From Candidatus Ghiorseimicrobium undicola (lineage in GTDB: Bacteria > Omnitrophota > Gorgyraeia > Ghiorseimicrobiales > Ghiorseimicrobiaceae): DNA of 60,038 nt. The notes beneath the pieces are model-generated. The model searched no databases. It saw nothing but the letters and a program-made list of their open reading frames with translations, and had not been told where the DNA came from. Positions 6,552-59,908 of the stretch are shown piece after piece. Both the position numbers and the translations under genes were made by a program. Each line of letters opens with the position of its first letter. Positions within the stretch are counted from its first letter, which is position 1. The stretch is from the NCBI GenBank assembly GCA_002796125.1, contig PCWA01000092.1, forward strand, positions 1 through 60,038. Reading direction: 5' to 3'.

Positions 6552-6556
6552 AGCCG

Positions 6557-6587
6557 CAACTTATGGAGCGTAAGCGAACATAAGTTG
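6557..6587. repeat. Repeat family A, copy 1 (AACTTATG-GAGCGTAAGCGAA-CATAAGTT)
   Basis: Same core as the copies at 9833, 10063, 11362 and about 18167; directly after the argJ stop. Confidence 0.85.
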
Positions 6588-6600
6588 TATGGCTGAAGTT

Positions 6601-6705
6601 ACCCGGCACCCTTTTTAAAGGCAATATTTATCAAGAAAGATAAAAAAACGGATAGGAATTTTTAAGGTATATTTTAAAAACTCCCGGTAAAAAGTGGTGC
6701 GGGGT
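6601..6705. repeat. ACCC(C/G)G...CGGGGT terminal-inverted-repeat element
   Basis: ACCCGGCACCCTTTTT pairs imperfectly with AAAAAGTGGTGCGGGGT. Confidence 0.6.
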
Positions 6706-6718
6706 AGGAGAATTCGAC

Positions 6719-11514: not shown

Positions 11515-12867
11515 ATGGCAAAGAAACTATGGGGCGGAAGGTTTAGTAAAAAGACAGACCCGTTAGTGGAAGAATTTACTAAATCTATCCAGTATGATTA
11601 TAAGTTGGCTAAATATGACTTGCTTGGCTCTATGGCGCATATAGAAATATTAAAAAAAGCCGAATATTTAACTTCTGCTGAAGCAAATAAGCTTTTAGAA
11701 GGATTGGATTCTATTTATGATGCCGTTGAAGAGAAGAAGTTTAAATTTGACAAAAAATGCGAGGATATACATACTGCTATCCAGAATTCATTACAAAAAA
11801 AAGTTGGTGATCTGGCTTTAAAATTGCATACCGCAAGGTCAAGGAATGATCAAGTAGTGTTTGCCACAAAGATGTATTCTAAGATGGAATTAGCCAAATT
11901 AAATATTGTTATTGCAGAATTAGGCAATGTTTTGATAAAACTTGGAAAAAATAATAGCGAGGTTGTTATTCCCGGATTCACCCATATGCAGCATGCCCAG
12001 CCGGTTTACCTATCGGATTATCTTCATGCCTACTGTGAAATGCTGGATAGGGATATTAAACGGTTGGGTCGCATTGAAAATGATATAAAAATATGTATGG
12101 GTGCCGGCGCTCTTGCCGGAACTCCTATTAATGCCGAAGAATATAAAATAAAAGCCGAAGAATTTATAAAAGAATCAAAAATTGGCGAAGCTTTTAATGT
12201 GCAAGCGGTCTCTAATTCTCTGGATGCGGTCAGCGACCGGGATTTTGTGATTGAGATAATCAGCGCTTTATCAATTTTGAGCATGCATTTATCGCGGCTG
12301 GCGGAGGATTTGATTATCTGGTCAACCAAAGAATTTGATTTTGTGGAGATTGATGAGGCATTTTGCACGGGAAGTTCGCTTATGCCGCAGAAAAAAAATG
12401 CTGATGTTTTGGAATTAGTGAGGGGTTATGCCGGACGGCTTTACGGTAATTTAGTCAGTGTTCTGACAATGATGAAGGGCCTGCCGCTAACCTACAACAG
12501 AGATATGCAGCTGGATAAGGAACCGTTGTTTAATTCTTTTGAGATAGTATCGAGCGAACTAAGGGTTTTAGCCGGTTTGGTTAAAACGTTAAAATTTAAT
12601 AAAGAAAAAATTGCCGAACACCTAAAAGACGAGTCGTTATATGCCACGGACTTAGTGTATTATTTGGTAGATAGAGGTATTGCTTTTAAAAACGCGCATA
12701 CGGCTATCGGAAAATTAATTAAATATTCTCTGGATAATGATATTTTAATAAAAGATATGCCGGAGAGCCTGTTAAAAAAATTCAGTAATAAGATTATTAA
12801 AAAGGAATTCGTTAAATTATTTGATCCCTTAGTCTCAGTCAAGTCAAAAAAGTCTATTAAAAGGTGA
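11515..12867 (+). CDS. argH: Argininosuccinate lyase
   Basis: LWGGRF, HTARSRNDQV, GSSLMPQKKN and YNRDMQLDK. Confidence 0.98.
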   Translation: MAKKLWGGRFSKKTDPLVEEFTKSIQYDYKLAKYDLLGSMAHIEILKKAEYLTSAEANKLLEGLDSIYDAVEEKKFKFDKKCEDIHTAIQNSLQKKVGDLALKLHTARSRNDQVVFATKMYSKMELAKLNIVIAELGNVLIKLGKNNSEVVIPGFTHMQHAQPVYLSDYLHAYCEMLDRDIKRLGRIENDIKICMGAGALAGTPINAEEYKIKAEEFIKESKIGEAFNVQAVSNSLDAVSDRDFVIEIISALSILSMHLSRLAEDLIIWSTKEFDFVEIDEAFCTGSSLMPQKKNADVLELVRGYAGRLYGNLVSVLTMMKGLPLTYNRDMQLDKEPLFNSFEIVSSELRVLAGLVKTLKFNKEKIAEHLKDESLYATDLVYYLVDRGIAFKNAHTAIGKLIKYSLDNDILIKDMPESLLKKFSNKIIKKEFVKLFDPLVSVKSKKSIKR

Positions 12868-12882
12868 TTCAAAGCAGGGCTT

Positions 12883-13112
12883 ATGAAATATGACCATGTA
12901 TTCCAGCTGCTTTCTTATATATCAAAAAAGAAAAACATAACTTTTATATTGATTGGGGGATTTGCGGTTAATTATTACAAGTACGCCCGGATATTATTAA
13001 CTTAGCAAAGATTAACAGTTTTGATATAAAGGGTGATAAATTTCATGAATTGTGTTCAAAATTCGCCACCGAAGAGATTTATCAGAAAATTTTAAAGACT
13101 ATTAATGGATAA
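12883..13112 (+). pseudogene. Internally deleted, frameshifted nucleotidyltransferase-like gene
   Basis: N-terminal MKYDHVF...ILIGGFAVNYYK joined out of frame to a C-terminal-like segment PDIINLAKINSFDI...LCSKFATEEIYQKIL; the DxD-bearing middle is missing. Confidence 0.55.
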
Positions 13113-13278
13113 TCTTAATCTGCCGATAATTAAATTACCCATTTTTAAAACTAAGCCATTATCAATGGATGAGTACCTGCGATTTATTGCCTTTAATTTA
13201 AAATATACGGCGGATATAAAGACAGGGCGGCGTTTGAAAAGGGAAACTTTTGTGAATGCGCCGTTTGTATTAAGGTAA
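13105..13278 (+). CDS. 57-aa hypothetical protein, possible partner of the NTase remnant (not in the ORF track)
   Basis: ATG 13105 to TAA 13278: MDNLNLPIIKLPIFKTKPLSMDEYLRFIAFNL...VNAPFVLR; overlaps the upstream stop and ends 7 nt before lysA. Confidence 0.55.
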   Translation: MDNLNLPIIKLPIFKTKPLSMDEYLRFIAFNLKYTADIKTGRRLKRETFVNAPFVLR

Positions 13279-13285
13279 AAATATT

Positions 13286-14557
13286 ATGCACGAGTTTAAA
13301 TATAAAAATAACCATCTTTACTGCGAGAACATAAAAATAGAGGATTTGGCAAAGAAATTCGGCACACCGCTTTATGTCTATAGCTACCATACTTTAATTG
13401 ACCATTTTTTCAAATTAAAGAATGCTTTTAAACCGGTTGATCCGCTTATTTGCTATTCGGTTAAGGCGAATTCGAACCTTGCGATATTAAAAGCATTGGT
13501 AGATAAGGGCGCCGGACTAGATATCGTATCAGGCGGGGAGCTTTACCGTGCGAAGGCCTCCGGCGTTGATGCGAAAAAAATAGTTTACGCCTCTGTCGGG
13601 AAGACAGAGGAGGAAATAGAAAAAGCCATACGGCACGGTATTTTATTCTTTAACGTTGAGTCTATCCCGGAGCTTGAGCTGATAAATAAAGTCGCCTGCC
13701 GGCTGGGGGCAAAGACAAATGTAGCCATACGCATTAATCCGGATGTTGAGCCGAAAACTCATAAGTATATTACTACAGGAAAACTTACCAATAAATTCGG
13801 CATTGATTTTGAAACCGCGCGGATTATATTTCTCTCAAATAATGAATTGCCGCATCTTGACATATGCGGTATACACATGCATATCGGCTCGCAAATAACT
13901 GACAGTGCTCCTTATATCGCCGCGCTTAAAAAGATTGTTAAGTTTATCGGCGAATTAAAAAAGAGGGGCATAAATTTAAAATATTTAAATATCGGCGGAG
14001 GGCTGGGGATAATTTACAATAAAGAAACGCCGCAGACGGCCAAGGAATTTAGCCGTAAAATTATACCGGTTTTAAAGAGTACGGGACTTAAAATTATCAT
14101 GGAGCCGGGAAGGTTCATCGCTGGAAATTCCGGCGTATTGATTACTAAAGTATTGTATATGAAAAAGACGCCGCTTAAAAATTTTATCATAGTGGATGGC
14201 GCGATGAATGACCTTGTGCGGCCCAGCCTCTATGGCGCCTATCACGAGATACTGCCGCTCTATAATCCTGCCGGCAGCAAGCGCATTAACATTAAGTATG
14301 ATGTAGTCGGGCCTATTTGCGAGTCGGGAGATTTTCTGGCAAAAGACAGGGCGGTGTCGAAAATATCGGCAGGAGAATACCTGGCAGTTATGTCATGCGG
14401 CGCGTATGGATTCACTATGAGCAGTAATTATAATTCAAGGCCGCGGGCATGCGAGGCGCTGGTTATAAAAAATAAGGCATTTATGATCCGTAAAAGGGAA
14501 AGCGATAAGGACTTGATTCGCAACGAACATGTGCCAAATTTCCTTTTAGGTTTCTAG
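13286..14557 (+). CDS. lysA: Diaminopimelate decarboxylase
   Basis: YSVKANSN, HMHIGSQ, EPGRF, GPICESGD and GAYGFTMSSNYNSRPR. Confidence 0.97.
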   Translation: MHEFKYKNNHLYCENIKIEDLAKKFGTPLYVYSYHTLIDHFFKLKNAFKPVDPLICYSVKANSNLAILKALVDKGAGLDIVSGGELYRAKASGVDAKKIVYASVGKTEEEIEKAIRHGILFFNVESIPELELINKVACRLGAKTNVAIRINPDVEPKTHKYITTGKLTNKFGIDFETARIIFLSNNELPHLDICGIHMHIGSQITDSAPYIAALKKIVKFIGELKKRGINLKYLNIGGGLGIIYNKETPQTAKEFSRKIIPVLKSTGLKIIMEPGRFIAGNSGVLITKVLYMKKTPLKNFIIVDGAMNDLVRPSLYGAYHEILPLYNPAGSKRINIKYDVVGPICESGDFLAKDRAVSKISAGEYLAVMSCGAYGFTMSSNYNSRPRACEALVIKNKAFMIRKRESDKDLIRNEHVPNFLLGF

Positions 14558-46110: not shown

Positions 46111-47094
46111 ATGGAAACTCTCTTTAAAGCCCATAAACAAATAGCCAAGAATTTCGATGAAAATGAAAGCATAGTTCTGCATCTCGGAGATACGCTTGAG
46201 TTTTTAAAAACTCTCCCTTCAGAATCTATATCCTTATCTATCAGCTCCCCGCCATATAATATCGGCAAGGTTTATGAAAAAAAGGTGGAGATTGAGGAGT
46301 ATTTGTCAGCTCAGAAGCCGGTAATAAGCGAACTCGTTAGAACATTAAAAAAAGACGGTAGCATTTGTTGGGAAATTGGCAACTATGTTGATAAAGGAGA
46401 GATTTTTCCTTTAGATATTTACTATTATGATATTTTTAAAGAATATGGGCTAAAGCTAAGAAATAGGATAATTTGGCATTTTGGGCATGGGCTTCACGCG
46501 AGCAAAAGGTTTTCAGGCAGGTATGAAACTATTCTCTGGTTTACCAAAACCGATTCCTATAAGTTTAACCTTGATAATGTAAGAATCCCGTCTAAATATC
46601 CGGGCAAACGGCATTTTAAGGGCAAGCAAAAAGGAAGGCCTTCCTGCAATCCCCTCGGAAAAAACCCCTCTGATATTTGGACTGTGATAGAAGACGATTG
46701 GGACAAGGAAATATGGAATATTCCGAATGTTAAAGCAAATCATCCTGAAAAAACTATTCATCCTTGCCAGTTTCCGATAGAGCTTGTAGAACGTTGTGTT
46801 TTAGCGTTGACGGATCAAAATGACTGGGTGTTTGATTCCTATTGCGGGGTCGGCAGCGCGTTGATTGCGGCCCTAAAGAACGATCGAAGGGCTATAGGCT
46901 GTGATAAAGAAGAGGATTATATCAAGATTACGGAAAAAAGAATAAATGATTATTATTCCGGAGCCTTAAAGACACGGCCTATTGGCAAACCTATCTTTAT
47001 GCCTACAGGTAGAGAGAAAGTTTGCCAAATTCCCAAAGAATGGAAAGAAGGATCAGGAGAAAATGAAGATAGCCGGCGTCTACTCTTTCAATAA
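46111..47094 (+). CDS. Beta-class amino-DNA methyltransferase (probably N4-mC)
   Basis: SSPPYN catalytic motif precedes HPCQFP and DSYCGVGS (SAM-binding). Confidence 0.92.
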   Translation: METLFKAHKQIAKNFDENESIVLHLGDTLEFLKTLPSESISLSISSPPYNIGKVYEKKVEIEEYLSAQKPVISELVRTLKKDGSICWEIGNYVDKGEIFPLDIYYYDIFKEYGLKLRNRIIWHFGHGLHASKRFSGRYETILWFTKTDSYKFNLDNVRIPSKYPGKRHFKGKQKGRPSCNPLGKNPSDIWTVIEDDWDKEIWNIPNVKANHPEKTIHPCQFPIELVERCVLALTDQNDWVFDSYCGVGSALIAALKNDRRAIGCDKEEDYIKITEKRINDYYSGALKTRPIGKPIFMPTGREKVCQIPKEWKEGSGENEDSRRLLFQ

Positions 47095-47629
47095 AGGCAA
47101 GGAAATCATAGAGAAAAATTATCCGGAGCTGCTTTCCGAGATCAAAACGATAATTTCTTCTATTGACGCGGGAAAGTATAAGGTTAAAAAGAGCAAAGAG
47201 AAGACGATGAAGGGCAGGCTGCTTTTTAGCCCGATTGAGTTAAACAACGCTTTCAAAACGAAGTTTAAGAAAAACAAATGGAAGACTATCAGGGTAAAGT
47301 GCGCGTATTCCAGTGAGCACTATTTAGACGGACATAAAAGCAAAGAAACCAAAGGAGCCTTTCGCGAAATGGATTTTGTAAAAGATGGGTTGGGTGTTGA
47401 GTTGCAATTCGGTAAGTATGCCTTTATGGTTTATAACGTCTGCGCTAAGATGACCATATTTAATAAGCTGAAATATATTAAATATGGGGTTGAGGTAGTC
47501 CCGATTAAAGAACTTGCAGAATCTATGTCAACCGGCGTATCCTACTTTGAGCAGTTTGTCTGGGATTTGGAACATAGAGGCGTTTCTGATATTGATATTC
47601 CCGTGCTCATATATGGAATAGGGGTATAA
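47063..47629 (+). CDS. Type II restriction endonuclease, BglII/BstYI family
   Basis: REMDFVKDGLGVELQFGK (D...ExQ active site typical of BglII); overlaps the MTase; ATG 47063 after AGGAG. Confidence 0.82.
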   Translation: MKIAGVYSFNKGKEIIEKNYPELLSEIKTIISSIDAGKYKVKKSKEKTMKGRLLFSPIELNNAFKTKFKKNKWKTIRVKCAYSSEHYLDGHKSKETKGAFREMDFVKDGLGVELQFGKYAFMVYNVCAKMTIFNKLKYIKYGVEVVPIKELAESMSTGVSYFEQFVWDLEHRGVSDIDIPVLIYGIGV

Positions 47630-49018: not shown

Positions 49019-49198
49019 ATGAAAACAAAGAAACCGCCGCTGGAGATAGAAATCGAATATAAGCCCATGAGCGAAAAGGACTACGATATATTTATCAAGA
49101 TTCTTACTAAAATGTTTAGTAAATATATGGCAGAAAGAAAGACAAAAATAGAGAGTAATGATAAACCTGTAGATTATGTTAATCCGTTGCACTGTTAA
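49019..49198 (+). CDS. 59-aa hypothetical protein (not in the ORF track)
   Basis: MKTKKPPLEIEIEYKPMSEKDYDIFIKILTKMF...; overlaps the start of the next gene. Confidence 0.4.
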   Translation: MKTKKPPLEIEIEYKPMSEKDYDIFIKILTKMFSKYMAERKTKIESNDKPVDYVNPLHC

Positions 49199-49727
49199 GC
49201 TTTTAAAAGAATTAAATTTAGCCGCGTCTGAACTTACCGATAGCGTGCCTTCTGAATTGAAACTAGGAGAGTGGTTCGCGAACCTCTTTTTCATAGAGCG
49301 TAAAAAATGCCTTATTTTCACCAATACTCGGACGCTGTTTACGTTTATATCATTCGCGGTCAACCGAACGCAGATAAAGAACATCGGAGAGCTTTTCCGC
49401 GCGGGATTGGGCAAGGCTTTATTAGATGAGGATTTTGACGGTGCCGTGATTCAGCGGTTAGTTGACGAGTGTCACGATATGCAATTTTCCAAAACAAATA
49501 ATAAGAGCGTTCTCGGTGCCATGAATGACCATGTAAAGACTGCAAAGTGGATGGTCTGGCGGGATGGCGGATTGGGAAAATGTAATTTCCCCCATCTTAT
49601 AAAAAAACTTAACCGCACGCCATTTTCAACGCGGAGATTTGCCTACGCGATTGAGGAGCTGGGTAAGGTTTTAGGTATCGAGATAGACCCGAGACTAAAC
49701 TTTAAACCAAAATTCGTGTATGGTTAG
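49176..49727 (+). CDS. DUF6933-like protein (related to pRiA4b ORF3 N-terminal domain)
   Basis: MLIRCTVKLL...LGEWFANLF..ERKKC, and KTNNKSVLGAMND...LNRTP. Confidence 0.65.
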   Translation: MLIRCTVKLLKELNLAASELTDSVPSELKLGEWFANLFFIERKKCLIFTNTRTLFTFISFAVNRTQIKNIGELFRAGLGKALLDEDFDGAVIQRLVDECHDMQFSKTNNKSVLGAMNDHVKTAKWMVWRDGGLGKCNFPHLIKKLNRTPFSTRRFAYAIEELGKVLGIEIDPRLNFKPKFVYG

Positions 49728-49768: not shown

Positions 49769-49797
49769 TTGACAACTACTGATTAATAAAGAATAAT
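49769..49797 (+). promoter_or_regulatory. Probable promoter of the HTH-REC/KS-ACP-TE-HK operon
   Basis: TTGACA-17-AATAAT. Confidence 0.55.
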
Positions 49798-49821
49798 AAG
49801 ATATCTTGGGAGGTATCTTTG

Positions 49822-49998
49822 GTGAAGTCGGAAGTTTTAACCTTTGATGAGACAAAGAAATATTTAAAAATAAGCGACTCTACGCTTTACCGGCTTGTGC
49901 AGTCTAAAAGAATACCCGCGGCAAAAGTCGGCCGCTCCTGGCGTTTTCGGAAAGAACGCATTGACCAATGGCTCAAAGAGCAGGAGAAAGTTAAATAG
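49822..49998 (+). CDS. Excisionase-family HTH_17 protein (58 aa; not in the ORF track)
   Basis: GTG after GGGAGG: KSEVLTFDETKKYLKISDSTLYRLVQSKRIPAAKVGRSWRFRKERIDQWLKEQEKVK*. Confidence 0.85.
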   Translation: MKSEVLTFDETKKYLKISDSTLYRLVQSKRIPAAKVGRSWRFRKERIDQWLKEQEKVK

Positions 49999-50008
49999 GG
50001 ATATCGGC

Positions 50009-51613
50009 ATGCCAAAGAATATATTAGTTATTGATGATGATCCCCAAGTATTAAATAGCCTTGAGAAGTTATTTAAAAAGGAAAATTATACAGTCGTTAA
50101 GGCTTCAAGTGGTAAGGAAGCTTTTGAAAAAGTTGAGTTTCAATGTTTTGATTTGGTTATTGCGGATATTAGGATGCCGGGTATTGATGGCGTTGAAACG
50201 GCAAAGAAAATAAAGCAGATACAGAAAGAAAAAGGCAGGGGAGATATCCCCGTTTTGTTTATAACCGGCTATGCGGATTTAGCCGCCAATGCCGAAGCAG
50301 AGCAGTTAGGCGAAGTGGTTTTAAAACCTTTTGATGTTGAAAATTTACTAAATCGAGTAAAGGCGCAAAGTGGTAAAAGAAGGGTTGTTATAACAGGTTT
50401 AGGCGTAGTTGCTCCTAATGGTATCGGCAAAGATGAGTTTTGGGAAGCTAATATAAATGGTAAATCAGGGGTAGATAGGATTCTATCTTTTGATGTATCG
50501 CAGTTAAATTCTAAGATTGCCGCTCAAGTAAAAGATTTTGATCCGCTAAAATACATGCCTAAATTATTGGCAAAGAAAGCAGATCGTTTTACTCAATTCG
50601 GCATTGCCGCTTCTAAGCTAGCATTGGAAGATAGCGGCTTAGATTTGGAAAAAGAAGATAGGGGGCACATTGGCGTATCTATCGGAACCGGATTAGGGGG
50701 GATGTTATATCATGAAGAAGTTGTTTTGCAAATGCATAAAGATAAGTTTAGTAAAGTAGATCCGTTAAGCGTTCCTAAGATTACTTCGAACGCCGCATCG
50801 AGTAATGCAGCGATTCTTTTTTCCTTGAGTGGGCCTAATGCTACTATGTCTACCGCATGCGCGGCTGGAGCCCATGGTATAGGCTATGCTTATGATTTAA
50901 TCAAATTAAATAGAGCAGATATAATGTTTGCCGGTGGAGCCGAGGCCCCGATAACACCTTTTACTTTATGTACTTTTGATGCTCTCAGGGTATTATCTAC
51001 GCGCAATGACTCTCCCCATGAAGCCAGCCGTCCCTTTGATAAGGAGAGAGATGGTTTTGTAATGGGAGAGGGGGCAGGCGTAGTGATATTGGAAGAATTA
51101 GAGCATGCCAAAAAGAGAAATGCGCATATATATGCAGAAATTATTGGGTATAGTTTAACTTCAGGTGCGCATCATATGGTTATACCTGCTAGCGAAGGTA
51201 AAGATATCTCCCGAACCATATCCTTAGCCTTAAAAGACGCAAATATTGAGCCGCAAAAAATAGATTATATTAACGCACACGGAACATCCACGCAAGCTAA
51301 TGATAGGGCGGAAACGCGTGCAATAAAAGAAGTGTTTGGGAATTATGCCTATAAAGTTCCTATTTCTTCAACAAAGTCTATGATTGGTCATAGTCTTGGA
51401 GCGTCTGGAGCGATTGGTGTGATTGTCTGTCTTTTGACGATAGAAAACAATATTATCCCACCCACGATAAATTATAAATACAAAGATCCGGAATGTGATC
51501 TTGATTATGTGCCTAATGAGGCAAGAAAAGCAAAAGTGGATTTTGCCCTGACTAATGCTTTTGGCTTTGGTAATAATAATATTTCAATTGTCATAAAAAG
51601 ATTAGGAGAGTAA
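50009..51613 (+). CDS. Receiver (REC) domain fused to a FabF-type beta-ketoacyl-ACP synthase
   Basis: REC: LVIDDD, IADIRMP, ITG, KPF; KS: RRVVITGLG, TACAAG (Cys), AHGTST, KSMIGHSLGA, NAFGFG; true start ATG 50009. Confidence 0.9.
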   Translation: MPKNILVIDDDPQVLNSLEKLFKKENYTVVKASSGKEAFEKVEFQCFDLVIADIRMPGIDGVETAKKIKQIQKEKGRGDIPVLFITGYADLAANAEAEQLGEVVLKPFDVENLLNRVKAQSGKRRVVITGLGVVAPNGIGKDEFWEANINGKSGVDRILSFDVSQLNSKIAAQVKDFDPLKYMPKLLAKKADRFTQFGIAASKLALEDSGLDLEKEDRGHIGVSIGTGLGGMLYHEEVVLQMHKDKFSKVDPLSVPKITSNAASSNAAILFSLSGPNATMSTACAAGAHGIGYAYDLIKLNRADIMFAGGAEAPITPFTLCTFDALRVLSTRNDSPHEASRPFDKERDGFVMGEGAGVVILEELEHAKKRNAHIYAEIIGYSLTSGAHHMVIPASEGKDISRTISLALKDANIEPQKIDYINAHGTSTQANDRAETRAIKEVFGNYAYKVPISSTKSMIGHSLGASGAIGVIVCLLTIENNIIPPTINYKYKDPECDLDYVPNEARKAKVDFALTNAFGFGNNNISIVIKRLGE

Positions 51614-51616
51614 TTT

Positions 51617-51874
51617 ATGAATAAGAAAAATAGAACCGTTGTCGAAGGTAAAATAAGCGAGATTATTTCAGAGAGGTTGGATATCAAGAAAGAAGATATA
51701 AAGCCGGAGTCTAAGCTAAGGGAGGATTTAGGAATTGATTCTTTTGGTTTGGTAGAGTTATCGTTTGAGGTAAAGGATAAGTTTGGGCTAGAGCTAAAGG
51801 ATCAGGATTTTAAATCAATAACAACGGTTAACGATGTGGTGGATTATATTTTTAATAATATGAAAGGGGATTAA
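51617..51874 (+). CDS. Acyl carrier protein
   Basis: LREDLGIDSFGLVEL (phosphopantetheine Ser) and ITTVNDVVDYI. Confidence 0.92.
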   Translation: MNKKNRTVVEGKISEIISERLDIKKEDIKPESKLREDLGIDSFGLVELSFEVKDKFGLELKDQDFKSITTVNDVVDYIFNNMKGD

Positions 51875-51876
51875 TT

Positions 51877-52293
51877 ATGCCGGAGAACGAATTTATTTTC
51901 GAAAAGACAATTTACCTGGGGAATACCAATATGTTTGGTAATGTTTATTTTGCTAGGTATTTTGATTGGCAGGGTGAAGCGAGAGAAGCCTTTTTTTATA
52001 AAACCGTACCAGAAAGTTTAGCCCTTTTTAAAAGCGGCATAAAATTTGTAACCATAGAAGCGTATATTAAATATAACAAAGAAACAGTCGTATTTGATGA
52101 TGTCATGATTAAAGTGCAGGCGGCAAATTTTAAAATCACTACATTCGAGTTAATATTTACGTATCTAAATAAAAAAACTGGTGAGCTTATTGCCACAGGT
52201 AAGCAAAAATTAGGATTTGTTGATTCTAATAATAAGGTTATCCCCGTACCCGAGCAACTTAAAATTGCTTGGGATAAGTTTATAGGAAAATGA
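51877..52293 (+). CDS. Hot-dog-fold thioesterase (4HBT/YbgC superfamily, enediyne-TE-like motif)
   Basis: NTNMFGNVYFARYFDWQGEARE and LIATGKQ. Confidence 0.85.
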   Translation: MPENEFIFEKTIYLGNTNMFGNVYFARYFDWQGEAREAFFYKTVPESLALFKSGIKFVTIEAYIKYNKETVVFDDVMIKVQAANFKITTFELIFTYLNKKTGELIATGKQKLGFVDSNNKVIPVPEQLKIAWDKFIGK

Positions 52294-54416
52294 GTATTTA
52301 TTCTGTCTCGCCGTTAATTTGTTCTCTGCTGGCTCTCTCTTTCGGATTCTTCGTTTACTTCCATAATAGAAAATCGCAGGTAAATATTAGTTTTGGATTA
52401 TTATGCCTAAGTACTTTTTGGTGGCAATTTAGTTGGTTTATTTTATTTAATATTCAGGATAGGTCTTTGGTTTCATGCCTAACCAAAATCGGTTACACGG
52501 GTATTATATGGATACCTTTTACTTTCTATCATTTTGTTATTTATTGGTTAGGCCTGCATAAGGAAAAAATATTACTTTATCTATCGTATATCTTAGGTTT
52601 TGTTTTTCTTGTCATACTTTGGAGCTCGGATCTATTTCTAAAAGGATTCTATGAATATCGCTGGGGTTATTATCCAAAGGCGGGTCTTCTCCACCCGCTA
52701 TATTTGGCTATTTTATCCATAGTCGCGGCAAGAGTTTTTTGGGTTCTAGGATTGTCATTAAAAACAAGAAATTTATCTGCTGTTCAAAGGAATCAATTTA
52801 AATATACCATTACAAGTTTTGCCATTTATACATTAGCGTCCATCGATTTTATTATAAATTATGGTATTGAGTTTTATCCATTTGGATTTAGCTTTGTAAT
52901 ACTTTCTCTTTTCTTAGTTGCTTATGCTATCTTTAAATATCGCTTAATGGACATTAATGTTGTTTTTGCCCGTGCGAGCATATTTATAATAGTGTACGCG
53001 CTGGTTCTTGGTATCCCTTTTAGCTTAGTTAGCTGGGGAAGACTTTGGCTTGTGAATGTTTTCGGTCAGTATTGGTTTCTCGGGCCGATGATTATTCTTC
53101 TTGGTTCGGCCACCGCTGGTCCTTTCATATATCAATATCTAAGAAAAAGAGCCGAAGACCTTATTCTTAAAGACCAACGTCGCTACCAGGGTATCTTGCA
53201 TAATCTCTCTAAGTCTATGATACGCATAAAAGACTTGGACGCGCTCATCGCAACTGTTACTTTGACAATGGTAGATATAGTTAAGGTGGACTTTGCCGCG
53301 ATATACCTGAAGGAAGATGAATACAAAAGTTACCAGCTTAAGCGATATTACCCTAAAGAAGCAAAAGGGAGATTCCAAGAATTTATTCCTTTTGAGCACT
53401 CTCTTGCTAAAATACTCTTTCTTAAAAAAAGTCCTATTTCGGGAGGAGATATTGGCCCTCAAGATAAGGTTGATTTAGACTCCGGTATTATCGTGCCTTA
53501 TCTCGTAGAAGAGAGTTTGTTGGGCTTTTTAGTTTTAGGAGCAAAGTCCAAGGGGCAAATGTATACTACTGATGATATCTTAATCCTGGAGACTATTTCT
53601 TACTCAACAAGCCTTGCCATTGAAAACTGCCGTTTCTGGAAAGAAATTGAAACCAAACAGCGCAAGGCCCGCCTGCAGGAAATGGATGCCTATTCTTACT
53701 CGCTTGCTCATGAGATAGATAACCCTGTGCAGGTGGTTATAGGTCAAACCGACCTTTTAAAGAAATACCTCCTGAAAGATATCCCCGAAGAAAGAAGAAA
53801 AGACACGTTAGAGGCCTATGAATATATCTTAGAGGCGGCCAAGCGTGTCTCCGGCATGGTTAAGGCTATTCGCGACTTTGGCTCCCCTGCTACCGGAGAA
53901 TTAAAGCCATTAAAACTTAACGACGTGGTGGAGAGTTTCTCAAAGCTTTATCTGCCGCAGTTTAAGACTAACACTGTCTATTTCGAAAAGCATCTTCCCG
54001 ATGGGGATATTTGTATAAAAGGCGAAAAGGCCGAACTGATGCAGGTTCTAGTAATCTTAGCCAATAATTCCATTCACGCCCTCTTGGATACCAAAGAAAA
54101 GAAAATCACCCTAAAAGCAGAGCCGCTTAATCAGGATAAGGTAAGAATAATATTCTCTGATAACGGCTACGGCATAAAGAAAGAAGACCTTGAGATTATC
54201 TTTAAGCCCTTTGTCACCACTAAGGCATCTACCGAAGGCACCGGCATGGGCCTTGCCAACGCGATAAAGATAATAGAGAAGCATAAAGGCAGGATTTGGG
54301 CGGAGAGTGAAGGTAAGGGTAAAGGCGCTAGTTTCTATATAGAGTTGCCTGTTGCGCAAGACACCAAAGAGGAAGACTTAGCTTGCGAGACAAACAAAAC
54401 AAAGAGATTATTTTAG
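52290..54416 (+). CDS. Sensor histidine kinase: N-terminal 7TM-type domain, GAF, HisKA, HATPase
   Basis: About 9 TM helices with YAIFKYRLMDI; GAF with LGAK..G..YT..D; AHEIDNP H-box; N-box, DNGYGI, FVTTK and GTGMGL. Confidence 0.92.
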   Translation: MSIYSVSPLICSLLALSFGFFVYFHNRKSQVNISFGLLCLSTFWWQFSWFILFNIQDRSLVSCLTKIGYTGIIWIPFTFYHFVIYWLGLHKEKILLYLSYILGFVFLVILWSSDLFLKGFYEYRWGYYPKAGLLHPLYLAILSIVAARVFWVLGLSLKTRNLSAVQRNQFKYTITSFAIYTLASIDFIINYGIEFYPFGFSFVILSLFLVAYAIFKYRLMDINVVFARASIFIIVYALVLGIPFSLVSWGRLWLVNVFGQYWFLGPMIILLGSATAGPFIYQYLRKRAEDLILKDQRRYQGILHNLSKSMIRIKDLDALIATVTLTMVDIVKVDFAAIYLKEDEYKSYQLKRYYPKEAKGRFQEFIPFEHSLAKILFLKKSPISGGDIGPQDKVDLDSGIIVPYLVEESLLGFLVLGAKSKGQMYTTDDILILETISYSTSLAIENCRFWKEIETKQRKARLQEMDAYSYSLAHEIDNPVQVVIGQTDLLKKYLLKDIPEERRKDTLEAYEYILEAAKRVSGMVKAIRDFGSPATGELKPLKLNDVVESFSKLYLPQFKTNTVYFEKHLPDGDICIKGEKAELMQVLVILANNSIHALLDTKEKKITLKAEPLNQDKVRIIFSDNGYGIKKEDLEIIFKPFVTTKASTEGTGMGLANAIKIIEKHKGRIWAESEGKGKGASFYIELPVAQDTKEEDLACETNKTKRLF

Positions 54417-54431
54417 CCGGAGGTAGATAAA

Positions 54432-54821
54432 ATGCCAGAGACTAAACCCATAAAACTTTTAGTTGTTGATGATGAAGAAGGGATAGTGCATTTTACTAAG
54501 AAAATCTATGAGCATAAAGGTTTTATTGCCTTTGGCGCGACTGACGGGGTTACCGCGGTAGAGATCTTTAAAAAAGAGAGGCCGCAAATTTCGCTTATAG
54601 ACGTGCATATGCCTTATTCGCCCATTGACGGCATTGAAACCCTGCGCCAGATAAAAGAGATAGACAAAAACGCCGTTTGTATAATGGTAACTCGCATTAC
54701 CGAACAAGATAAAGTGGACGCGGCGCGTTCTGCCGGCGCCTTTGCTTATCTTCTAAAGCCGCTAACCGCCGAAGATATAGACAATGTAATTAGTGAAGCA
54801 AGAGAGAAGCTGGGGTTCTAA
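54432..54821 (+). CDS. Single-domain response regulator
   Basis: LVVDDE, LIDVHMP, MVT and LKP. Confidence 0.92.
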   Translation: MPETKPIKLLVVDDEEGIVHFTKKIYEHKGFIAFGATDGVTAVEIFKKERPQISLIDVHMPYSPIDGIETLRQIKEIDKNAVCIMVTRITEQDKVDAARSAGAFAYLLKPLTAEDIDNVISEAREKLGF

Positions 54822-55319
54822 ATGGCTAATCCTCTACAAAACGAAAAAGAACTGTTCGAACAAATAAAAACCGAAAATATCACCATGCCCCCGGTCATAT
54901 GGAATTTTATCTATACTTACATCGGAGACGACGTTACCGCGATAAACCTCATCTGTCAGTATTACTTAGATAAAAGCGAGCCAATGCCGGTGGCAGAGGC
55001 AAAAAGAATAGAGACTTACTCAAGCAATGCCGGAGATGTCATCAAGAGGCTTACCGTAAAAGGCGAAGAAAACCGCCACTTTCCGGACTTTGAGAAAAAC
55101 ATGCCGCTTCATCCGCTAATAATAGAGATGCTCACTCATTATATAGGCAACGATACGCAAGTAATTAACCTAATCGTAGGCGTTCATATCGAGACCGGGG
55201 ACGATTATCCGCTCTCCAAGCAGGAAATTGCCAATGTGTTAAGCCATACCAGTTCTTTAAAGGAATTTATGGAGAAGCTAAGAGAGGCAACTTATAAGGG
55301 CGAAAGGATCAAGCAATGA
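54822..55319 (+). CDS. Two-repeat helical protein, possibly a DHp-like phosphotransfer protein
   Basis: Repeats MPPVIWNFIYTYIGDDVTAINLI and LHPLIIEMLTHYIGNDTQVINLI. Confidence 0.55.
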   Translation: MANPLQNEKELFEQIKTENITMPPVIWNFIYTYIGDDVTAINLICQYYLDKSEPMPVAEAKRIETYSSNAGDVIKRLTVKGEENRHFPDFEKNMPLHPLIIEMLTHYIGNDTQVINLIVGVHIETGDDYPLSKQEIANVLSHTSSLKEFMEKLREATYKGERIKQ

Positions 55320-56062
55320 TAAAGATTTTAGCCGTAGATGATGAGCCGGGAATATGCAATGTCTTAAAGAGGACTTTTGAACCTACAGGTTTTACTGTTT
55401 TAACCGCCGTCAACGGCAAAGACGCCCTTTCTCTGGTAAATAAGGAAAAACCCAAGATTGTATTCTTAGACGTTAAAATGCTGGGGATGTCTGGATTTGA
55501 GGTATTAAAGGAAATCAAGCTCATAGACAAGAATATCAAAGTAATTATGATTACGGTAATGGATGATGAGGCGACGAAAGAAGAGGCAAGGCGTTTAGGC
55601 GCGGACGACTTTGTTATAAAGCCGTTTGTATCCAGCCAATTGGAAGAAATAGTTACGCGCGAGATAGGCGAATTGACTAAGCCGAAGATATTAATTGTAG
55701 ATGATGAGCCGAATATAGTCGAGACCTTTGCCGATTATCTTTCGCGGAACGTTAACTGTGACGTAGAGTTGGCTTATAGCGGTAAAGACGCTTTGGAAAA
55801 GCTCAAAAGCGGCGCTTTTGACGTAGCGCTTTTGGATATTATGATGCCCGGGTTATCTGGTATAGATGTAATAAAGGAGGCGCAGAAATTCAGCCCGCAG
55901 ACTAAAATTCTGGCAATCTCCGGCTATGACAGCTTAGACATAGCAGATAAAGCGCTTAAGGCAGGAGCCGCGGATTTCCTGCATAAGCCCGTACCTCCCA
56001 AGGCGCTTACGTATAAGATAAAGCAGATTCTTGGCGAGATGGGAAAATATTCGCCGAAATAG
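55316..56062 (+). CDS. Tandem double-receiver response regulator (REC-REC)
   Basis: AVDDE..LDVKM..KPF and IVDDE..LDIMMP..KPV; no output domain. Confidence 0.92.
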   Translation: MIKILAVDDEPGICNVLKRTFEPTGFTVLTAVNGKDALSLVNKEKPKIVFLDVKMLGMSGFEVLKEIKLIDKNIKVIMITVMDDEATKEEARRLGADDFVIKPFVSSQLEEIVTREIGELTKPKILIVDDEPNIVETFADYLSRNVNCDVELAYSGKDALEKLKSGAFDVALLDIMMPGLSGIDVIKEAQKFSPQTKILAISGYDSLDIADKALKAGAADFLHKPVPPKALTYKIKQILGEMGKYSPK

Positions 56063-56065
56063 TAA

Positions 56066-56644
56066 TTAAATATGTTTCGGGTTTTGGATAATTATGCAGG
56101 CGGTTTTTTGGCTGGTGTTATTTTCGAAATGATGCGGCAGAGTGCTTTCAAACGCAAGGGTTTCGTCTTTGGCGATTTCATGCTTTTCCTCTCCAACTAC
56201 GCAGGTAACCTTTCCCTTTAAGACATAAACCCACTTTTTAAAACTTCCTAATTCTGGTGGATCCTGTTCAAGCTTAGTTTTTCCGCCCGGTGTAAGCATG
56301 AGCCTTAAACCTAAAAATGGCTGTTTATCGCTGGTTAATATCTGCGCTTGAGCCTTTTCTGAATGGACATATTGGGCAATTTTATCGCGCTTTCTGATTA
56401 CTTCAACTAAAGAAAACTTTTCTTCTTCCGTGCCTTCCTTAACTTCCTTTAAGGAAACACCCAGCCCAATACATATTTGCGAGAGGGAGGCAATGCGCGG
56501 ATCTCTTAATCCCTTTTCAATACGGTAAAGAGTATTGTAGCGTATAGCCTTCTTGCCGAATATACCTATTAATCTTTGCTCTAATTCGGTAAGAGATAAG
56601 CCCTTTTCTTTACGGATTTGTCGTATCTTTTCACCAAGCGTCAT
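56066..56644 (-). CDS. XRE-family HTH + cupin transcriptional regulator
   Basis: LGEKIRQIRKEKGLSL...LYRIEKGLRDP; cupin YVLKGK...FESTLPHHFEN. Confidence 0.9.
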   Translation of the reverse strand: MTLGEKIRQIRKEKGLSLTELEQRLIGIFGKKAIRYNTLYRIEKGLRDPRIASLSQICIGLGVSLKEVKEGTEEEKFSLVEVIRKRDKIAQYVHSEKAQAQILTSDKQPFLGLRLMLTPGGKTKLEQDPPELGSFKKWVYVLKGKVTCVVGEEKHEIAKDETLAFESTLPHHFENNTSQKTACIIIQNPKHI

Positions 56645-58453: not shown

Positions 58454-58861
58454 ATGAAATATGCCTCGCCGCAGCTTGAAGATGGTTATACAAGGATTGC
58501 TAATGAGCTGTTAGAGGCAATTATAATCTATCCTTTTCGCGCGGTTGAATTAAAAATTGTGCTTTTTATCATCAGAAAAACCTACGGCTGGAAAAAGAAA
58601 ACGGAAATTATCAGTTACGGAGCGATTGCCAGAGAGCTAAAAACCGATATCCGTTACGTAAAAAGACTAATGAATAAACTCGTTTCTGACAGGGTTATTT
58701 TTAAAGTCAAGATAGGCAGGCAGAATCTTATCGGCTTAAACAAAAACTATACAGCTTGGATGTTGTGGCTTTGCTCATCGGAAAGCAAACCACCGCCCTC
58801 TGGCTTGTGGAAAACCGACAATGCCGGTGGCGGGCAGTCCACTGGGGTAGTGGTTAGCTGA
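58454..58861 (+). CDS. Lambda O-type replication initiator, N-terminal domain only
   Basis: SPQLEDGYTRIANELLEAI, IIRKTYGWKKK and GLNKNY. Confidence 0.85.
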   Translation: MKYASPQLEDGYTRIANELLEAIIIYPFRAVELKIVLFIIRKTYGWKKKTEIISYGAIARELKTDIRYVKRLMNKLVSDRVIFKVKIGRQNLIGLNKNYTAWMLWLCSSESKPPPSGLWKTDNAGGGQSTGVVVS

Positions 58862-58912
58862 CCACTATGATAGTGGCGCAGCGGCCACCAAAAGTAGTGG
58901 TTTGCAGGCCAC
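58827..58912. repeat. Four GTGG-N8-CCAC palindromic iteron-like repeats (putative origin)
   Basis: Start at 58827, 58850, 58873 and 58897 (periods 23, 23, 24); followed by an A-rich tract. Confidence 0.75.
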
Positions 58913-59005
58913 CACATATAAAGAAAGAAAGAAAATTAAAAATAGTAGTAAAGAAAGGCCGTTAATTCTGTTGATAAAAAACTGTTTTTAAATTAATTAA
59001 AAATT

Positions 59006-59908
59006 ATGCAGAGAAAAAAACGCGAAATCTCTGAAACAATCTTAGTCGGCCGAGGCGTAGAGCTTGAGAAGCTCAAAGAGAATATTAAGAATAAAAAACA
59101 CACTTCTCTAACCGGAGATATCGGTACCGGCAAAACCCATCTTTTAAAGTATGCGGTCAAAGACATGAAAAAAGTTATTTACGTAGAGCGTATTCACCCT
59201 TTAAAAACAGCAGTTTTAGAAATTGCCTTTTGCCTGCATAAGCAGGGAAAATTAGCCATAGAGGGAGTGCACGCCGAATACCTGGAATGGAGGGATCTCA
59301 AAAGAAAGGTTACTCGCCTTCCCATAGCTGAGCTCCTTAGCTGTATCTTAGATGGCCTATTCAATCAGAACTATATCTTAGTTTTGGACCATCTGGAAGG
59401 CCTTACTCCTTCTATGGCTTTTACAATATCCTGTTTGATGGATAAATGCCTGCTTTTAGGCGCGACTAACGATTTAAAGAAAGCGGGACATCTTTCTAAA
59501 ATCTGGTGGAGGTTTGAACATATAGAAATTAAGAACTTAGATAAAGAAGACGCCAAGGTTTTGCTCTGGCTTTACGCGGATAAAGAAAGAATTAAAGATG
59601 AAGCGATGTTTGAAAATAAAGTATTAACTCACTCTTGCGGTAATCCTCTCGCCATCGTTGAGATGGCGCGGCGCACCGGCCCGGAGAAATTCGACGATCC
59701 GCAGAAAATCCGAGACCTAAGGCATGATGCCGGAGTAAGGTATTTTGACCTTTCACCCTGTTTATTATTTATCGGGGCGATTATTGTGGCAGTACGATTT
59801 ATCTCTTTAGGCTTAAATGATACGGATGGCTATATCTTAGCCGGTTCATTCGGAGCGTTCTTTATATTTTTGAGATTTTTTATCTATAAGTCCATGCGAG
59901 AGGCTTAA
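59006..59908 (+). CDS. P-loop (AAA+-like) ATPase with C-terminal TM hairpin
   Basis: LVGRGVEL, Walker A GDIGTGKT, Walker B LVLDHLE, GNP and two C-terminal hydrophobic helices. Confidence 0.8.
   Translation: MQRKKREISETILVGRGVELEKLKENIKNKKHTSLTGDIGTGKTHLLKYAVKDMKKVIYVERIHPLKTAVLEIAFCLHKQGKLAIEGVHAEYLEWRDLKRKVTRLPIAELLSCILDGLFNQNYILVLDHLEGLTPSMAFTISCLMDKCLLLGATNDLKKAGHLSKIWWRFEHIEIKNLDKEDAKVLLWLYADKERIKDEAMFENKVLTHSCGNPLAIVEMARRTGPEKFDDPQKIRDLRHDAGVRYFDLSPCLLFIGAIIVAVRFISLGLNDTDGYILAGSFGAFFIFLRFFIYKSMREA

What the first reader, a model, noticed from the sequence alone, without database searches (positions are those of the whole stretch)
50009..51613. Response-regulator receiver fused in frame to an intact FabF-type ketosynthase
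Seen: one frame with a complete REC (DDD, phospho-acceptor D in IADIRMP, T, KPF) joined by a short linker (AQSGK) to a KS that retains the Cys-His-His triad. Established: REC outputs are usually DNA-binding, GGDEF/EAL, kinase or phosphatase domains; a condensing enzyme is unusual. Inference: phosphorylation may control KS dimerisation or activity, giving phosphorelay control of acyl-chain synthesis.
Basis: partly seen in the sequence, partly recalled or inferred. Interest (0 to 1): 0.8.

Follow-up and report, generated by a model that had tools for sequence, protein, structure and literature searches.

The report
Receiver domain fused to a ketosynthase
An uncultured groundwater bacterium encodes a fatty-acid-type chain-building enzyme fused to a phosphorylation-switch domain, next to its own carrier protein, release enzyme and membrane sensor kinase, which suggests that a signalling relay directly switches synthesis of a small lipid-like product.

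Summary
Window 50009-51613 (+) is one intact 534-aa frame. It holds a complete receiver (REC, aa 5-118), a 5-residue linker and a FabF-type ketosynthase (KS, aa 124-532) with Cys284/His424/His461.

It is not an artefact. Contigs from two other samples cover the junction without a difference. A further 45 protein clusters (54-92% identical) share the architecture, with the phospho-acceptor residues and Cys284/His461 invariant (His424 in 45 of 46) and a fixed linker length in 45 of 46 sequences.

Split forms also exist. A stand-alone REC gene lies directly upstream of the KS gene in five genomes of other classes, and two loci have the pair separated by an in-frame stop.

The gene is an accessory paralogue; the housekeeping acpP-fabF cluster lies on another contig. 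It sits in a tight operon: HTH_17, REC-KS, own ACP, CalE7-like hotdog thioesterase, 7TM-GAF histidine kinase, REC, unknown protein, REC-REC.

Sister KS genes carry PilZ, PocR or PocR-GGDEF domains instead of REC.

My best reading, which is an inference, is a phosphorylation-controlled condensing enzyme of a small dedicated acyl pathway paired with its sensor kinase. The product may be a lipid signal.

Six literature searches found no description. The scan had earlier noted a split version on other DNA.

The parts
49769..49797 (+). promoter-like site TTGACA-17-AATAAT upstream of the HTH gene; possible operon start
   Evidence: 11 of 12 matches. The number of such sites in the region (20) is not above shuffles (19.8), so this is a hint only.
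49819..49998 (+). small excisionase-family HTH_17 protein (59 aa), ending 10 nt before the REC-KS start
   Evidence: TIGR01764 59.3 bits, cut-off 28.8. An HTH_17 gene also lies directly upstream of the KS in L084 and L206.
50009..51613 (+). REC-KS fusion protein, 534 aa (P0001)
50021..50362 (+). receiver domain (aa 5-118); the phospho-acceptor Asp53 codon is 50165-50167
   Evidence: PF00072, 88.1 bits. D9/D10/D11/D53/T86/K106 are invariant in 46 of 46 rows.
50363..50377 (+). linker AQSGK (aa 119-123), the end of REC helix 5 running into KS strand 1
   Evidence: secondary structure; the KPF-to-RRVV spacing is identical in 45 of 46 rows.
50378..51604 (+). FabF-type ketosynthase domain (aa 124-532); the Cys284 codon is 50858-50860; His424, His461
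   Evidence: TIGR03150 555.7 bits, cut-off 493.75; best solved relative FabF 5sxo, E 2.2e-123
51617..51874 (+). dedicated acyl carrier protein (85 aa, DSF serine motif), 3 nt after REC-KS
   Evidence: (NF002148 75.7 bits, cut-off 71)
51877..52293 (+). hotdog thioesterase (4HBT_2) of the CalE7/DynE7/SgcE10 type
   Evidence: PF13279, 59.2 bits; 2w3x CalE7 E 1.2e-15, 4i4j E 3.3e-15, 2xem E 3.4e-13.
52290..54416 (+). sensor histidine kinase: HisKA_7TM, GAF, HisKA (His in LAHEIDNP), HATPase_c; overlaps the thioesterase gene by 4 nt
54432..54821 (+). single-domain receiver (129 aa)
54822..55319 (+). 165-aa protein of no known family, internally duplicated
   Evidence: (no family)
55316..56062 (+). 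double receiver protein (REC-REC, 248 aa)
   Evidence: The same REC then REC-REC order follows the kinase in L199.
56066..56644 (-). convergent HTH_3-cupin regulator. A cupin gene holds the same place in L199.

Best explanation
P0001 is a response regulator whose output domain is an active FabF-type condensing enzyme. It is the first enzyme of a small self-contained operon: HTH_17, REC-KS, own ACP, CalE7-like hotdog thioesterase, 7TM-GAF histidine kinase, REC, unknown protein, REC-REC.

Proposed mechanism (all steps inferred):
1. The KS condenses an acyl primer from the cell's fatty-acid pool with malonate carried on the dedicated ACP. The housekeeping FabD would load that ACP.
2. The operon has no reductase or dehydratase, so the 3-oxoacyl-ACP is released as it is by the thioesterase. 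The product would be a beta-keto acid, which can lose CO2 to give a methyl ketone.
3. The membrane 7TM-GAF kinase phosphorylates Asp53. The change is passed through the fixed-length helix-5/linker into the KS and switches condensation on or off.

The product is most likely a small hydrophobic molecule rather than bulk membrane lipid. It may be the ligand of the neighbouring 7TM kinase, which would make the operon a synthase-receptor loop with post-translational feedback.
For: Shown:
- The frame is intact and both domains are full length.
- Independent contigs cover the junction.
- 45 further clusters share the architecture, with invariant REC phospho-acceptor residues and invariant KS Cys284/His461 (His424 in 45 of 46). 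The linker length is fixed in 45 of 46 rows.
- Stand-alone REC genes lie directly upstream of the KS in L029, L030, L033, L034 and L035. That is 5 of the 29 best KS loci from other genomes.
- In 4 of 4 of those genomes tested (G028, G100, G026, G196), that REC is the genome's best match to P0001's REC.
- In L198 and L120, REC and KS are in frame, separated by TGA plus 3 nt.
- These KS-linked RECs all keep D9, D10, D53, T86 and K106.
- The operon genes are spaced from -4 to +15 nt.
- A HisKA_7TM kinase lies in 11 of 19 Pfam-annotated accessory-KS loci. The own genome has only 4 such kinases in 1.83 Mb.
- The own-genome RECs most like P0001's REC lie on contigs C57 and C10. The other three HisKA_7TM kinases lie on the same two contigs.
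- The gene is accessory. FabD, AcpP and a FabF scoring 654 bits lie on C62.
- On the KS tree this clade is sister to the canonical FabFs (support 0.998).
- The thioesterase resembles enediyne chain-release thioesterases. Passages seen in PMC9992847 describe hydrolysis, decarboxylation and dehydration as a hypothetical thioesterase-mediated route to the enediyne synthase/thioesterase product.
- Sister KS proteins carry other signalling domains: PilZ with RxxxR and NxSxxG in 10 of 10, PocR, and PocR-GGDEF.
Against: - No experiment, RNA data or structure of the two states exists.
- The fused form is narrow. It has one representative at 50% identity among the best 150 of 1.84 billion. Among the 150 matches listed for 401 phylum genomes, it is fused only in the window's own genome; G201 holds the pair with an in-frame TGA stop.
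- One of the three fused loci with context (L118) has no ACP, thioesterase or kinase beside it. It has a MshEN-PilZ protein instead.
- The tailoring genes next to related KS-ACP pairs differ widely, so the product cannot be carried over from one locus to another.
- Fused and unfused KS domains differ consistently at only 2 weakly discriminating positions. No REC-docking surface is visible in sequence.
- The kinases of the different cassettes are only 18-36% identical.
- REC identity to the split-form RECs (42-48%) is only slightly above that to own-genome paralogues (40-44%).
- One family member (P0045) has Asn in place of His424.
- The catalytic roles of the thioesterase residues are recalled, not read; the paper is not held.
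Confidence: 0.55

Rival explanations
1. Membrane-lipid homeostasis. The REC-KS is a regulated FabF paralogue that changes the chain length of membrane fatty acids when the 7TM kinase senses the state of the membrane, a post-translational analogue of DesK/DesR-type control.
For: The KS part passes the fabF equivalog cut-off and is about 50% identical to solved FabFs. The kinase has a large 7TM membrane module.
Against: The operon brings its own ACP and a chain-release thioesterase but no acyltransferase or reductive enzymes. The housekeeping FabF is present elsewhere. The two same-family genomes lack an orthologue (best E about 1e-128 to 1e-130). Related cassettes carry aminotransferases, methyltransferases, HMG-CoA reductase or reductases, which looks like specialised products.
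Confidence: 0.2
2. The REC does not regulate catalysis. It may be a docking or localisation module that holds the KS at the kinase or membrane, or a phosphate sink that competes with the other three REC domains. In the second case the KS would act as a metabolic input to the relay rather than as its output.
For: There are four REC domains for one kinase in the operon. No fused-specific KS surface was found. Split forms show the REC can be a separate protein.
Against: The strictly fixed linker length in 45 of 46 rows and helix 5 running straight into KS strand 1 suggest mechanical coupling rather than a loose tether. PilZ, PocR and GGDEF domains at the same position in sister proteins fit an input-to-KS direction.
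Confidence: 0.15
3. Artefact: a lost stop codon, a frameshift or a chimeric assembly joined two neighbouring genes.
For: Relatives exist in which REC and KS are separate genes, some divided only by an in-frame stop plus 3 nt.
Against: An identical junction is found in contigs of other samples. 45 further clusters at 54-92% identity share the same frame and spacing.
Confidence: 0.01

Closest known systems
Response regulators with enzymatic output domains (CheB methylesterase, PleD/WspR GGDEF, RpfG HD-GYP); recalled general knowledge
   Same: An N-terminal receiver with full phospho-acceptor chemistry is joined to a C-terminal enzyme, and a histidine kinase is encoded beside it.
   Different: Here the output is a thiolase-fold condensing enzyme that forms C-C bonds on an acyl carrier protein. 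No paper describing this turned up in the searches.
FabF / KAS II (TIGR03150; solved FabFs such as 5sxo, 1j3n, 2gfw)
   Same: Full-length match above the equivalog cut-off, the Cys-His-His triad, Lys456 and the GFG loop.
   Different: It carries an N-terminal REC and lies in the order KS then ACP, with a thioesterase and a kinase, instead of in the acpP-fabF operon. It scores 555.7 bits against 654.3 bits for the housekeeping copy. It belongs to a separate clade.
Ser/Thr-kinase phosphorylation of mycobacterial KasA/KasB (PMC4014462; search listing and start of abstract seen)
   Same: It is a precedent that phosphorylation can regulate a fatty-acid condensing enzyme after translation.
   Different: There the KS itself is phosphorylated on Thr by Hanks-type kinases. 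Here a dedicated receiver domain with an Asp acceptor is fused to the KS and a histidine kinase is the neighbour.
Enediyne hotdog thioesterases CalE7 / DynE7 / SgcE10 (PDB 2w3x, 2xem, 4i4j)
   Same: The operon's thioesterase matches them at E 1e-13 to 1e-15 and shares the TN..GNVY motif. N18, Y28 and R36 align with CalE7 N19, Y29 and R37.
   Different: The partner is a discrete FabF-type KS plus ACP, not an iterative type I enediyne synthase. The residue roles are recalled from Kotaka 2009, which is not held.
Lipid-type quorum-sensing pairs: Ralstonia PhcB/PhcS/PhcR, Vibrio/Legionella CqsA-CqsS and LqsA-LqsS
   Same: A small fatty-acid-derived molecule made by a dedicated enzyme, a multi-pass membrane histidine kinase, and receiver proteins encoded together.
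   Different: The window has no PhcB-type methyltransferase or CqsA-type aminotransferase. The synthase itself carries the receiver. No molecule has been shown. This is a resemblance in how it may work, not membership.

Membership tests
CheY-like receiver domain (PF00072) | Profile match above the curated cut-off | tested here: met
   88.1 bits against a cut-off of 30.2, aa 5-118, profile positions 1-111 of 111.
CheY-like receiver domain (PF00072) | (beta-alpha)5 fold | tested here: met
   strands 4-8, 28-32, 49-53, 82-86 and 102-105 alternate with helices 12-24, 35-44, 61-74, 91-100 and 110-121.
CheY-like receiver domain (PF00072) | Acidic pocket, phospho-acceptor Asp after strand 3, Thr/Ser after strand 4, Lys after strand 5 | tested here: met
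   D9-D11, D53, T86 and K106 are invariant in 46 of 46 rows and are kept in the split-form RECs.
CheY-like receiver domain (PF00072) | Phosphorylated by a cognate histidine kinase | not testable with these tools
   Only adjacency to a HisKA_7TM-GAF kinase in the same operon is shown.
FabF / beta-ketoacyl-ACP synthase II (TIGR03150) | Equivalog profile score above the cut-off | tested here: met
   555.7 bits against a cut-off of 493.75, aa 124-530.
FabF / beta-ketoacyl-ACP synthase II (TIGR03150) | Cys-His-His catalytic triad | tested here: met
   C284 and H461 in 46 of 46 rows, H424 in 45 of 46. They align with the FabF motifs in 5sxo.
FabF / beta-ketoacyl-ACP synthase II (TIGR03150) | Housekeeping role in the fab operon (fabD, acpP and fabF as neighbours) | tested here: not met
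   That set lies on contig C62. The fused gene is a second, accessory copy in a separate clade.
FabF / beta-ketoacyl-ACP synthase II (TIGR03150) | Condenses acyl-ACP with malonyl-ACP | not testable with these tools
   This needs an enzyme assay.
Two-component system with an enzyme-output response regulator | REC plus enzyme in one protein, encoded with a histidine kinase | tested here: met
   The same pairing is seen in L119, and in split form in L199 and L201.
Enediyne-type hotdog thioesterase (CalE7/DynE7/SgcE10), for the downstream gene | Sequence similarity to the solved members, including the Asn/Tyr/Arg positions | tested here: met
   E 1.2e-15, 3.3e-15 and 3.4e-13. N18, Y28 and R36 align with N19, Y29 and R37 of 2w3x.
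Enediyne-type hotdog thioesterase (CalE7/DynE7/SgcE10), for the downstream gene | Works with an iterative type I enediyne polyketide synthase | tested here: not met
   No such synthase lies in the operon. The partner is a discrete KS plus ACP.
Lipid quorum-sensing synthase/sensor pairs (Phc, Cqs/Lqs) | PhcB-type methyltransferase or CqsA-type PLP enzyme as the signal synthase | tested here: not met
   Neither domain is in the window operon. An ICMT/PEMT methyltransferase occurs in L119 and an Aminotran_1_2 enzyme in L206.
Lipid quorum-sensing synthase/sensor pairs (Phc, Cqs/Lqs) | A diffusible product sensed by the neighbouring kinase | not testable with these tools
   No molecule is known.

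The most novel reading that the evidence does not exclude
REC-KS may be one member of an undescribed class in which signalling domains are wired directly onto a FabF-like condensing enzyme. The domains are a receiver, c-di-GMP-binding PilZ, PocR and PocR-GGDEF. Phosphorelay or second-messenger state would then gate, after translation, the committed C-C bond-forming step of a minimal KS-ACP-release pathway. Together with the co-encoded 7TM kinases, these cassettes would be self-made lipid-signal synthase/receptor circuits with built-in feedback in Omnitrophota, a phylum of very small uncultured bacteria.
Probability: 0.35. Interest if true: 0.85.

Novelty: new variant of a known kind. Interest (0 to 1): 0.72.

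Why it matters
Control of fatty-acid and polyketide condensing enzymes is known mostly at the level of transcription. The exception I know of is Ser/Thr phosphorylation of the enzyme itself in mycobacteria. A receiver domain hard-wired to a ketosynthase would be a direct two-component switch on carbon-chain formation. Its sister fusions to PilZ and PocR-GGDEF suggest that the same enzyme also takes c-di-GMP and small-molecule inputs.

The system is simple enough to test. It has one soluble protein, one ACP, one thioesterase and one kinase. It could reveal a new family of lipid signals in a phylum that has no cultured model, and it would give a compact phospho-switchable condensing enzyme for pathway engineering.

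Tried and rejected
- Complex prediction: REC (aa 1-119) against the KS dimer (aa 120-534, two copies), each given as the 46-row alignment. The verdict was no answer (score 0.00, mark 0.32) and the controls were not run. This is not evidence either way.
- Search for a REC-docking surface: I compared 46 fused with 59 unfused KS domains, column by column. Only positions 257 (K vs R) and 296 (D vs R) separate them, and weakly.
- Region-wise identity of 8 cassette kinases: 18-36% in all three regions. There is no sign that the 7TM part diverges faster than the kinase core.
Only L063 and L084 were useful.
- Metagenome-contig scan with the first 175 aa: only 3 of the 80 loci kept span the junction (L118 and L119 fused, L120 split by an in-frame stop).
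- Profile search of 1.84 billion representatives: the best 150 are mostly giant multi-KS synthases. Only one fused representative appears, so more distant fused forms scoring below about 509 bits could be hidden.
- Composition: the cassette is at 37-38% GC against 37-45% elsewhere in the window, so it is not an outlier.
- Promoter and terminator scans: site counts are not above shuffles.
- Atlas search for the 165-aa protein: only unnamed clusters and weak helical-bundle look-alikes.
- Papers on the CalE7 and SgcE10 structures are not held.
- The search of earlier findings by place and by words: nothing.
- Supplementary files were not consulted.
Full report
**Observation**

Window 50009-51613 (+) is a single open frame of 534 aa, kept as P0001.
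- Pfam finds a full-length receiver at aa 5-118 (88.1 bits, cut-off 30.2). It finds both halves of a ketosynthase at aa 124-367 and 375-489.
- NCBIfam places the KS part above the fabF equivalog cut-off (555.7 vs 493.75 bits).
- The nearest solved proteins are FabFs (5sxo, E 2.2e-123, query 123-532). No solved chain covers both domains.
- An AlphaFold2 model built on 46 family members has mean pLDDT 81.2 and pTM 0.78. It shows a (beta-alpha)5 receiver whose helix 5 (110-121) is joined by four residues to the first KS strand (126-135).

**Not an artefact**

Six groundwater metagenome runs hold the stretch.
- In run X2, which is not the probable source sample, one 1629-nt contig covers 49996-51624 with no difference and no gap.
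- A contig of X3 covers 50188-50706 likewise. No insertion or deletion was listed.
- In the protein collection, 45 of the 120 best listed hits are 530-547 aa proteins with Response_reg plus both KS domains, at 54-92% identity.
- In the 46-row alignment D9, D10, D11, D53, T86, K106, C284, K456 and H461 are invariant. H424 is His in 45 of 46; P0045 has Asn.
- The spacing from KPF to RRVV is identical in 45 of 46 rows.

**Distribution and split forms**

The fused form is narrow.
- A profile search of 1.84 billion representatives at 50% identity gave one full-length hit (P0010) among the best 150.
- Among the 150 matches listed for 401 genomes of the phylum, only the window's own genome and G201 have a match over the whole query. 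In G201 the two parts are separated by an in-frame TGA.
- The two genomes of the same family have only canonical-level matches.

Split forms are found more widely across the phylum's classes.
- Of the 29 best KS loci from other genomes, five have a stand-alone REC gene directly upstream of the KS in another frame: L029, L030, L033, L034 and L035, all from other classes. One (L025 = L198) has REC, TGA, 3 nt, then the ATG of the KS.
- A metagenome contig (L120) has the same in-frame stop arrangement.
- In G028, G100, G026 and G196, the REC next to the KS is the genome's best match to P0001's REC (E 1e-30 to 1e-34, next best 1e-22 to 1e-26).
- These RECs keep D9, D10, D53, T86 and K106.
The split forms are independent evidence that this REC and this KS belong together.

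**What the KS is**

The genome (1.83 Mb, 115 contigs, 94% complete) has a housekeeping set on contig C62.
- FabD is at 10535-11356, AcpP at 12379-12582 and a FabF at 12752-13981. That FabF scores 654.3 bits on the fabF model.
- On a FastTree phylogeny of 138 KS domains, the fused proteins lie in an accessory clade that is sister to the canonical FabFs (support 0.998).
- The five split-form KS are basal in that clade. Fused groups of 20, 14 and 4 sequences, plus scattered ones, are interleaved with unfused KS and with a PilZ-KS group.
- The two stop-separated forms fall in a different, deeper clade together with the first KS of L063 and L084.
- The N-terminal module has therefore been gained, lost or exchanged several times.

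**The operon**

The genes from 49819 to 56062 are spaced between -4 and +15 nt. In order they are:
- an excisionase-family HTH_17 protein;
- REC-KS;
- an ACP with the DSF serine motif;
- a 4HBT_2 hotdog thioesterase;
- a HisKA_7TM-GAF-HisKA-HATPase kinase;
- a REC;
- a 165-aa protein of no family;
- a REC-REC protein;
- then a convergent HTH-cupin gene.

The same layout recurs elsewhere.
- In split form in G026 it reads REC, KS, ACP, unknown, 7TM-GAF kinase, REC, REC-REC, cupin.
- G100 has a variant: REC, KS, ACP, DUF4442 hotdog, HpaB-like, 7TM kinase, REC-REC.
- In fused form in L119 it reads REC-KS, ACP, ICMT/PEMT methyltransferase, second KS, 7TM-GAF kinase, REC.
- A HisKA_7TM kinase lies in 11 of the 19 accessory-KS loci that I annotated. 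Some kind of histidine kinase lies in 14 of 19. The own genome has four such 7TM kinases in all.
- The own-genome RECs most like P0001's lie on C57 and C10, the contigs that hold the other three.

One locus goes against a uniform picture. The fused gene of L118 has no ACP, thioesterase or kinase beside it, and is followed by a MshEN-PilZ protein.

**The thioesterase**

- Its nearest solved relatives are CalE7 (E 1.2e-15), SgcE10 (3.3e-15) and DynE7 (3.4e-13). These are the chain-release hotdog thioesterases of enediyne synthases.
- N18, Y28 and R36 align with CalE7 N19, Y29 and R37.
- Passages of PMC9992847 describe thioesterase-mediated hydrolysis, decarboxylation and dehydration as a hypothetical route to the enediyne synthase/thioesterase product.
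- PMC4147253 calls these thioesterases chain-terminating hotdog enzymes.
- The catalytic roles of the three residues are my recollection of Kotaka et al. 2009, which is not held.
- The operon has no ketoreductase, dehydratase or enoyl reductase. The simplest product is therefore a released 3-oxo acid or its decarboxylated methyl ketone. This is inference.

**Mechanism proposed**

- The 7TM-GAF kinase phosphorylates D53.
- The change at the helix 4/strand 5/helix 5 face is passed through the fixed-length helix 5 and linker into the KS, and gates condensation.
- The product may be what the kinase senses.
- The steps that are shown: the architecture, its conservation, the split pairs, the neighbourhood and the accessory status.
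- The steps that are inferred: phosphotransfer, the effect on activity, the primer and product, and the feedback loop.
Thiolase-fold KS enzymes are constitutive dimers (recalled).

**Wider pattern**

The same KS clade, or near relatives, is fused to other signalling or tailoring domains.
- PilZ: 10 of the 120 listed hits, all with RxxxR and NxSxxG. Two further representatives and a double-PilZ form also exist.
- PocR and PocR-GGDEF.
- ICMT (L211), a C-terminal methyltransferase and a C-terminal NUDIX.
- A REC 53% identical to P0001's (51% in the alignment) heads a REC-PilZ-methyltransferase protein next to a 7TM kinase in G201.

**Literature and earlier notes**

- Six full-text searches over Creative Commons PMC and bioRxiv found no description of a REC-KS, PilZ-KS or PocR-KS protein. 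Subscription literature and supplementary files were not seen.
- PMC4014462 (listing and start of abstract only) is a precedent for phospho-regulation of a condensing enzyme, by Ser/Thr kinases.
- Earlier notes of this scan had described a split cassette on other DNA: CheY, KAS and ACP flanked by 7TM kinases (e1-1102837), read as a lipid signal with a matched receptor.
- They had also described the KS-ACP-hydrolase-HAD-aminotransferase set that I see in L205, L212 and L213 (e1-994852, e1-2026174).
- I treated these as leads. My neighbourhood results agree with them.

**Verdict**

This is a new output type for a response regulator, in a conserved operon that can be tested directly. Its function is inferred, not shown.

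Noticed in passing
proteins P0056, P0058, P0062, P0066, P0068, P0069, P0072, P0083, P0084, P0103, P0206, P0210, P0179 (no window coordinates): PilZ-KS fusions of 568-582 aa, plus one of 625 aa (P0210) and a double-PilZ form of 757 aa (P0179), in the same KS clade. The ten aligned ones all keep the c-di-GMP-binding motifs RxxxR and NxSxxG. This suggests a c-di-GMP-gated ketosynthase.
   Followed up: partly
proteins P0150, P0233, P0257 (PocR-KS); P0163, P0197, P0214, P0262 (PocR-GGDEF-KS); P0248 (KS-NUDIX); P0087 (KS-methyltransferase); L211:4276-6129 (ICMT-KS): Further fusions of FabF-like KS to sensory, second-messenger or tailoring domains. None turned up in the literature searches.
   Followed up: partly
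L214:48-1811 (G201 contig C9), followed by L214:1816-2721: A REC 53% identical to P0001's REC heads a REC-PilZ-Methyltransf_31 protein of 587 aa, directly followed by a 7TM kinase. The same REC subfamily is therefore attached to another enzyme.
   Followed up: partly
L198:1040-1160 and L120:2160-2290: REC and KS are in the same frame, separated only by TGA plus 3 nt before the KS ATG. Loss of one stop codon would fuse them.
   Followed up: yes
window 54822-55319: A 165-aa protein with no Pfam or NCBIfam match lies between the REC and the REC-REC gene. It is made of two similar halves of about 75 aa. The Atlas finds only unnamed single-repeat proteins of 86-89 aa and weak helical-bundle look-alikes.
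   Followed up: partly
window 46111-47629, 49176-49727 and 58454-59908: The cassette is flanked by a type II restriction-modification pair (N6_N4 methylase and a BglII-like endonuclease), a DUF6933 protein and, downstream, a Phage_rep_O protein and an AAA ATPase. Integrase or transposase genes lie next to the cassette in L199, L119 and L120. The cassette may be mobile.
   Followed up: no
L206:6836-8035 (G301) and L207:9776-10978 (G259): Unfused KS-ACP pairs next to a 7TM kinase carry a class I/II aminotransferase, which recalls CqsA-type signal synthases (recalled), or an HMG-CoA reductase. The tailoring step differs from cassette to cassette.
   Followed up: no
own genome G000: C42:11527-14011 and C42:15559-15753: A tandem KS pair (462.8 and 380.1 bits on fabF, both below the cut-off) with a third ACP nearby. 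It looks like the type II polyketide KS/CLF operon that earlier notes of this scan describe in this phylum.
   Followed up: no
own genome G000: C10:1878-2519, C57:41566-42216, C57:47256-47891: Three more HisKA_7TM kinases, on the two contigs (C10, C57) that also hold the receivers most like P0001's REC. This kinase-receiver pairing is expanded in the genome.
   Followed up: partly
L210:7052-7459 and 5807-7051 (G171): An ACT-domain ORF ends directly before an unfused KS of the same clade, which is followed by a 4HBT_2 thioesterase. This may be another small-molecule-binding partner for the KS.
   Followed up: no
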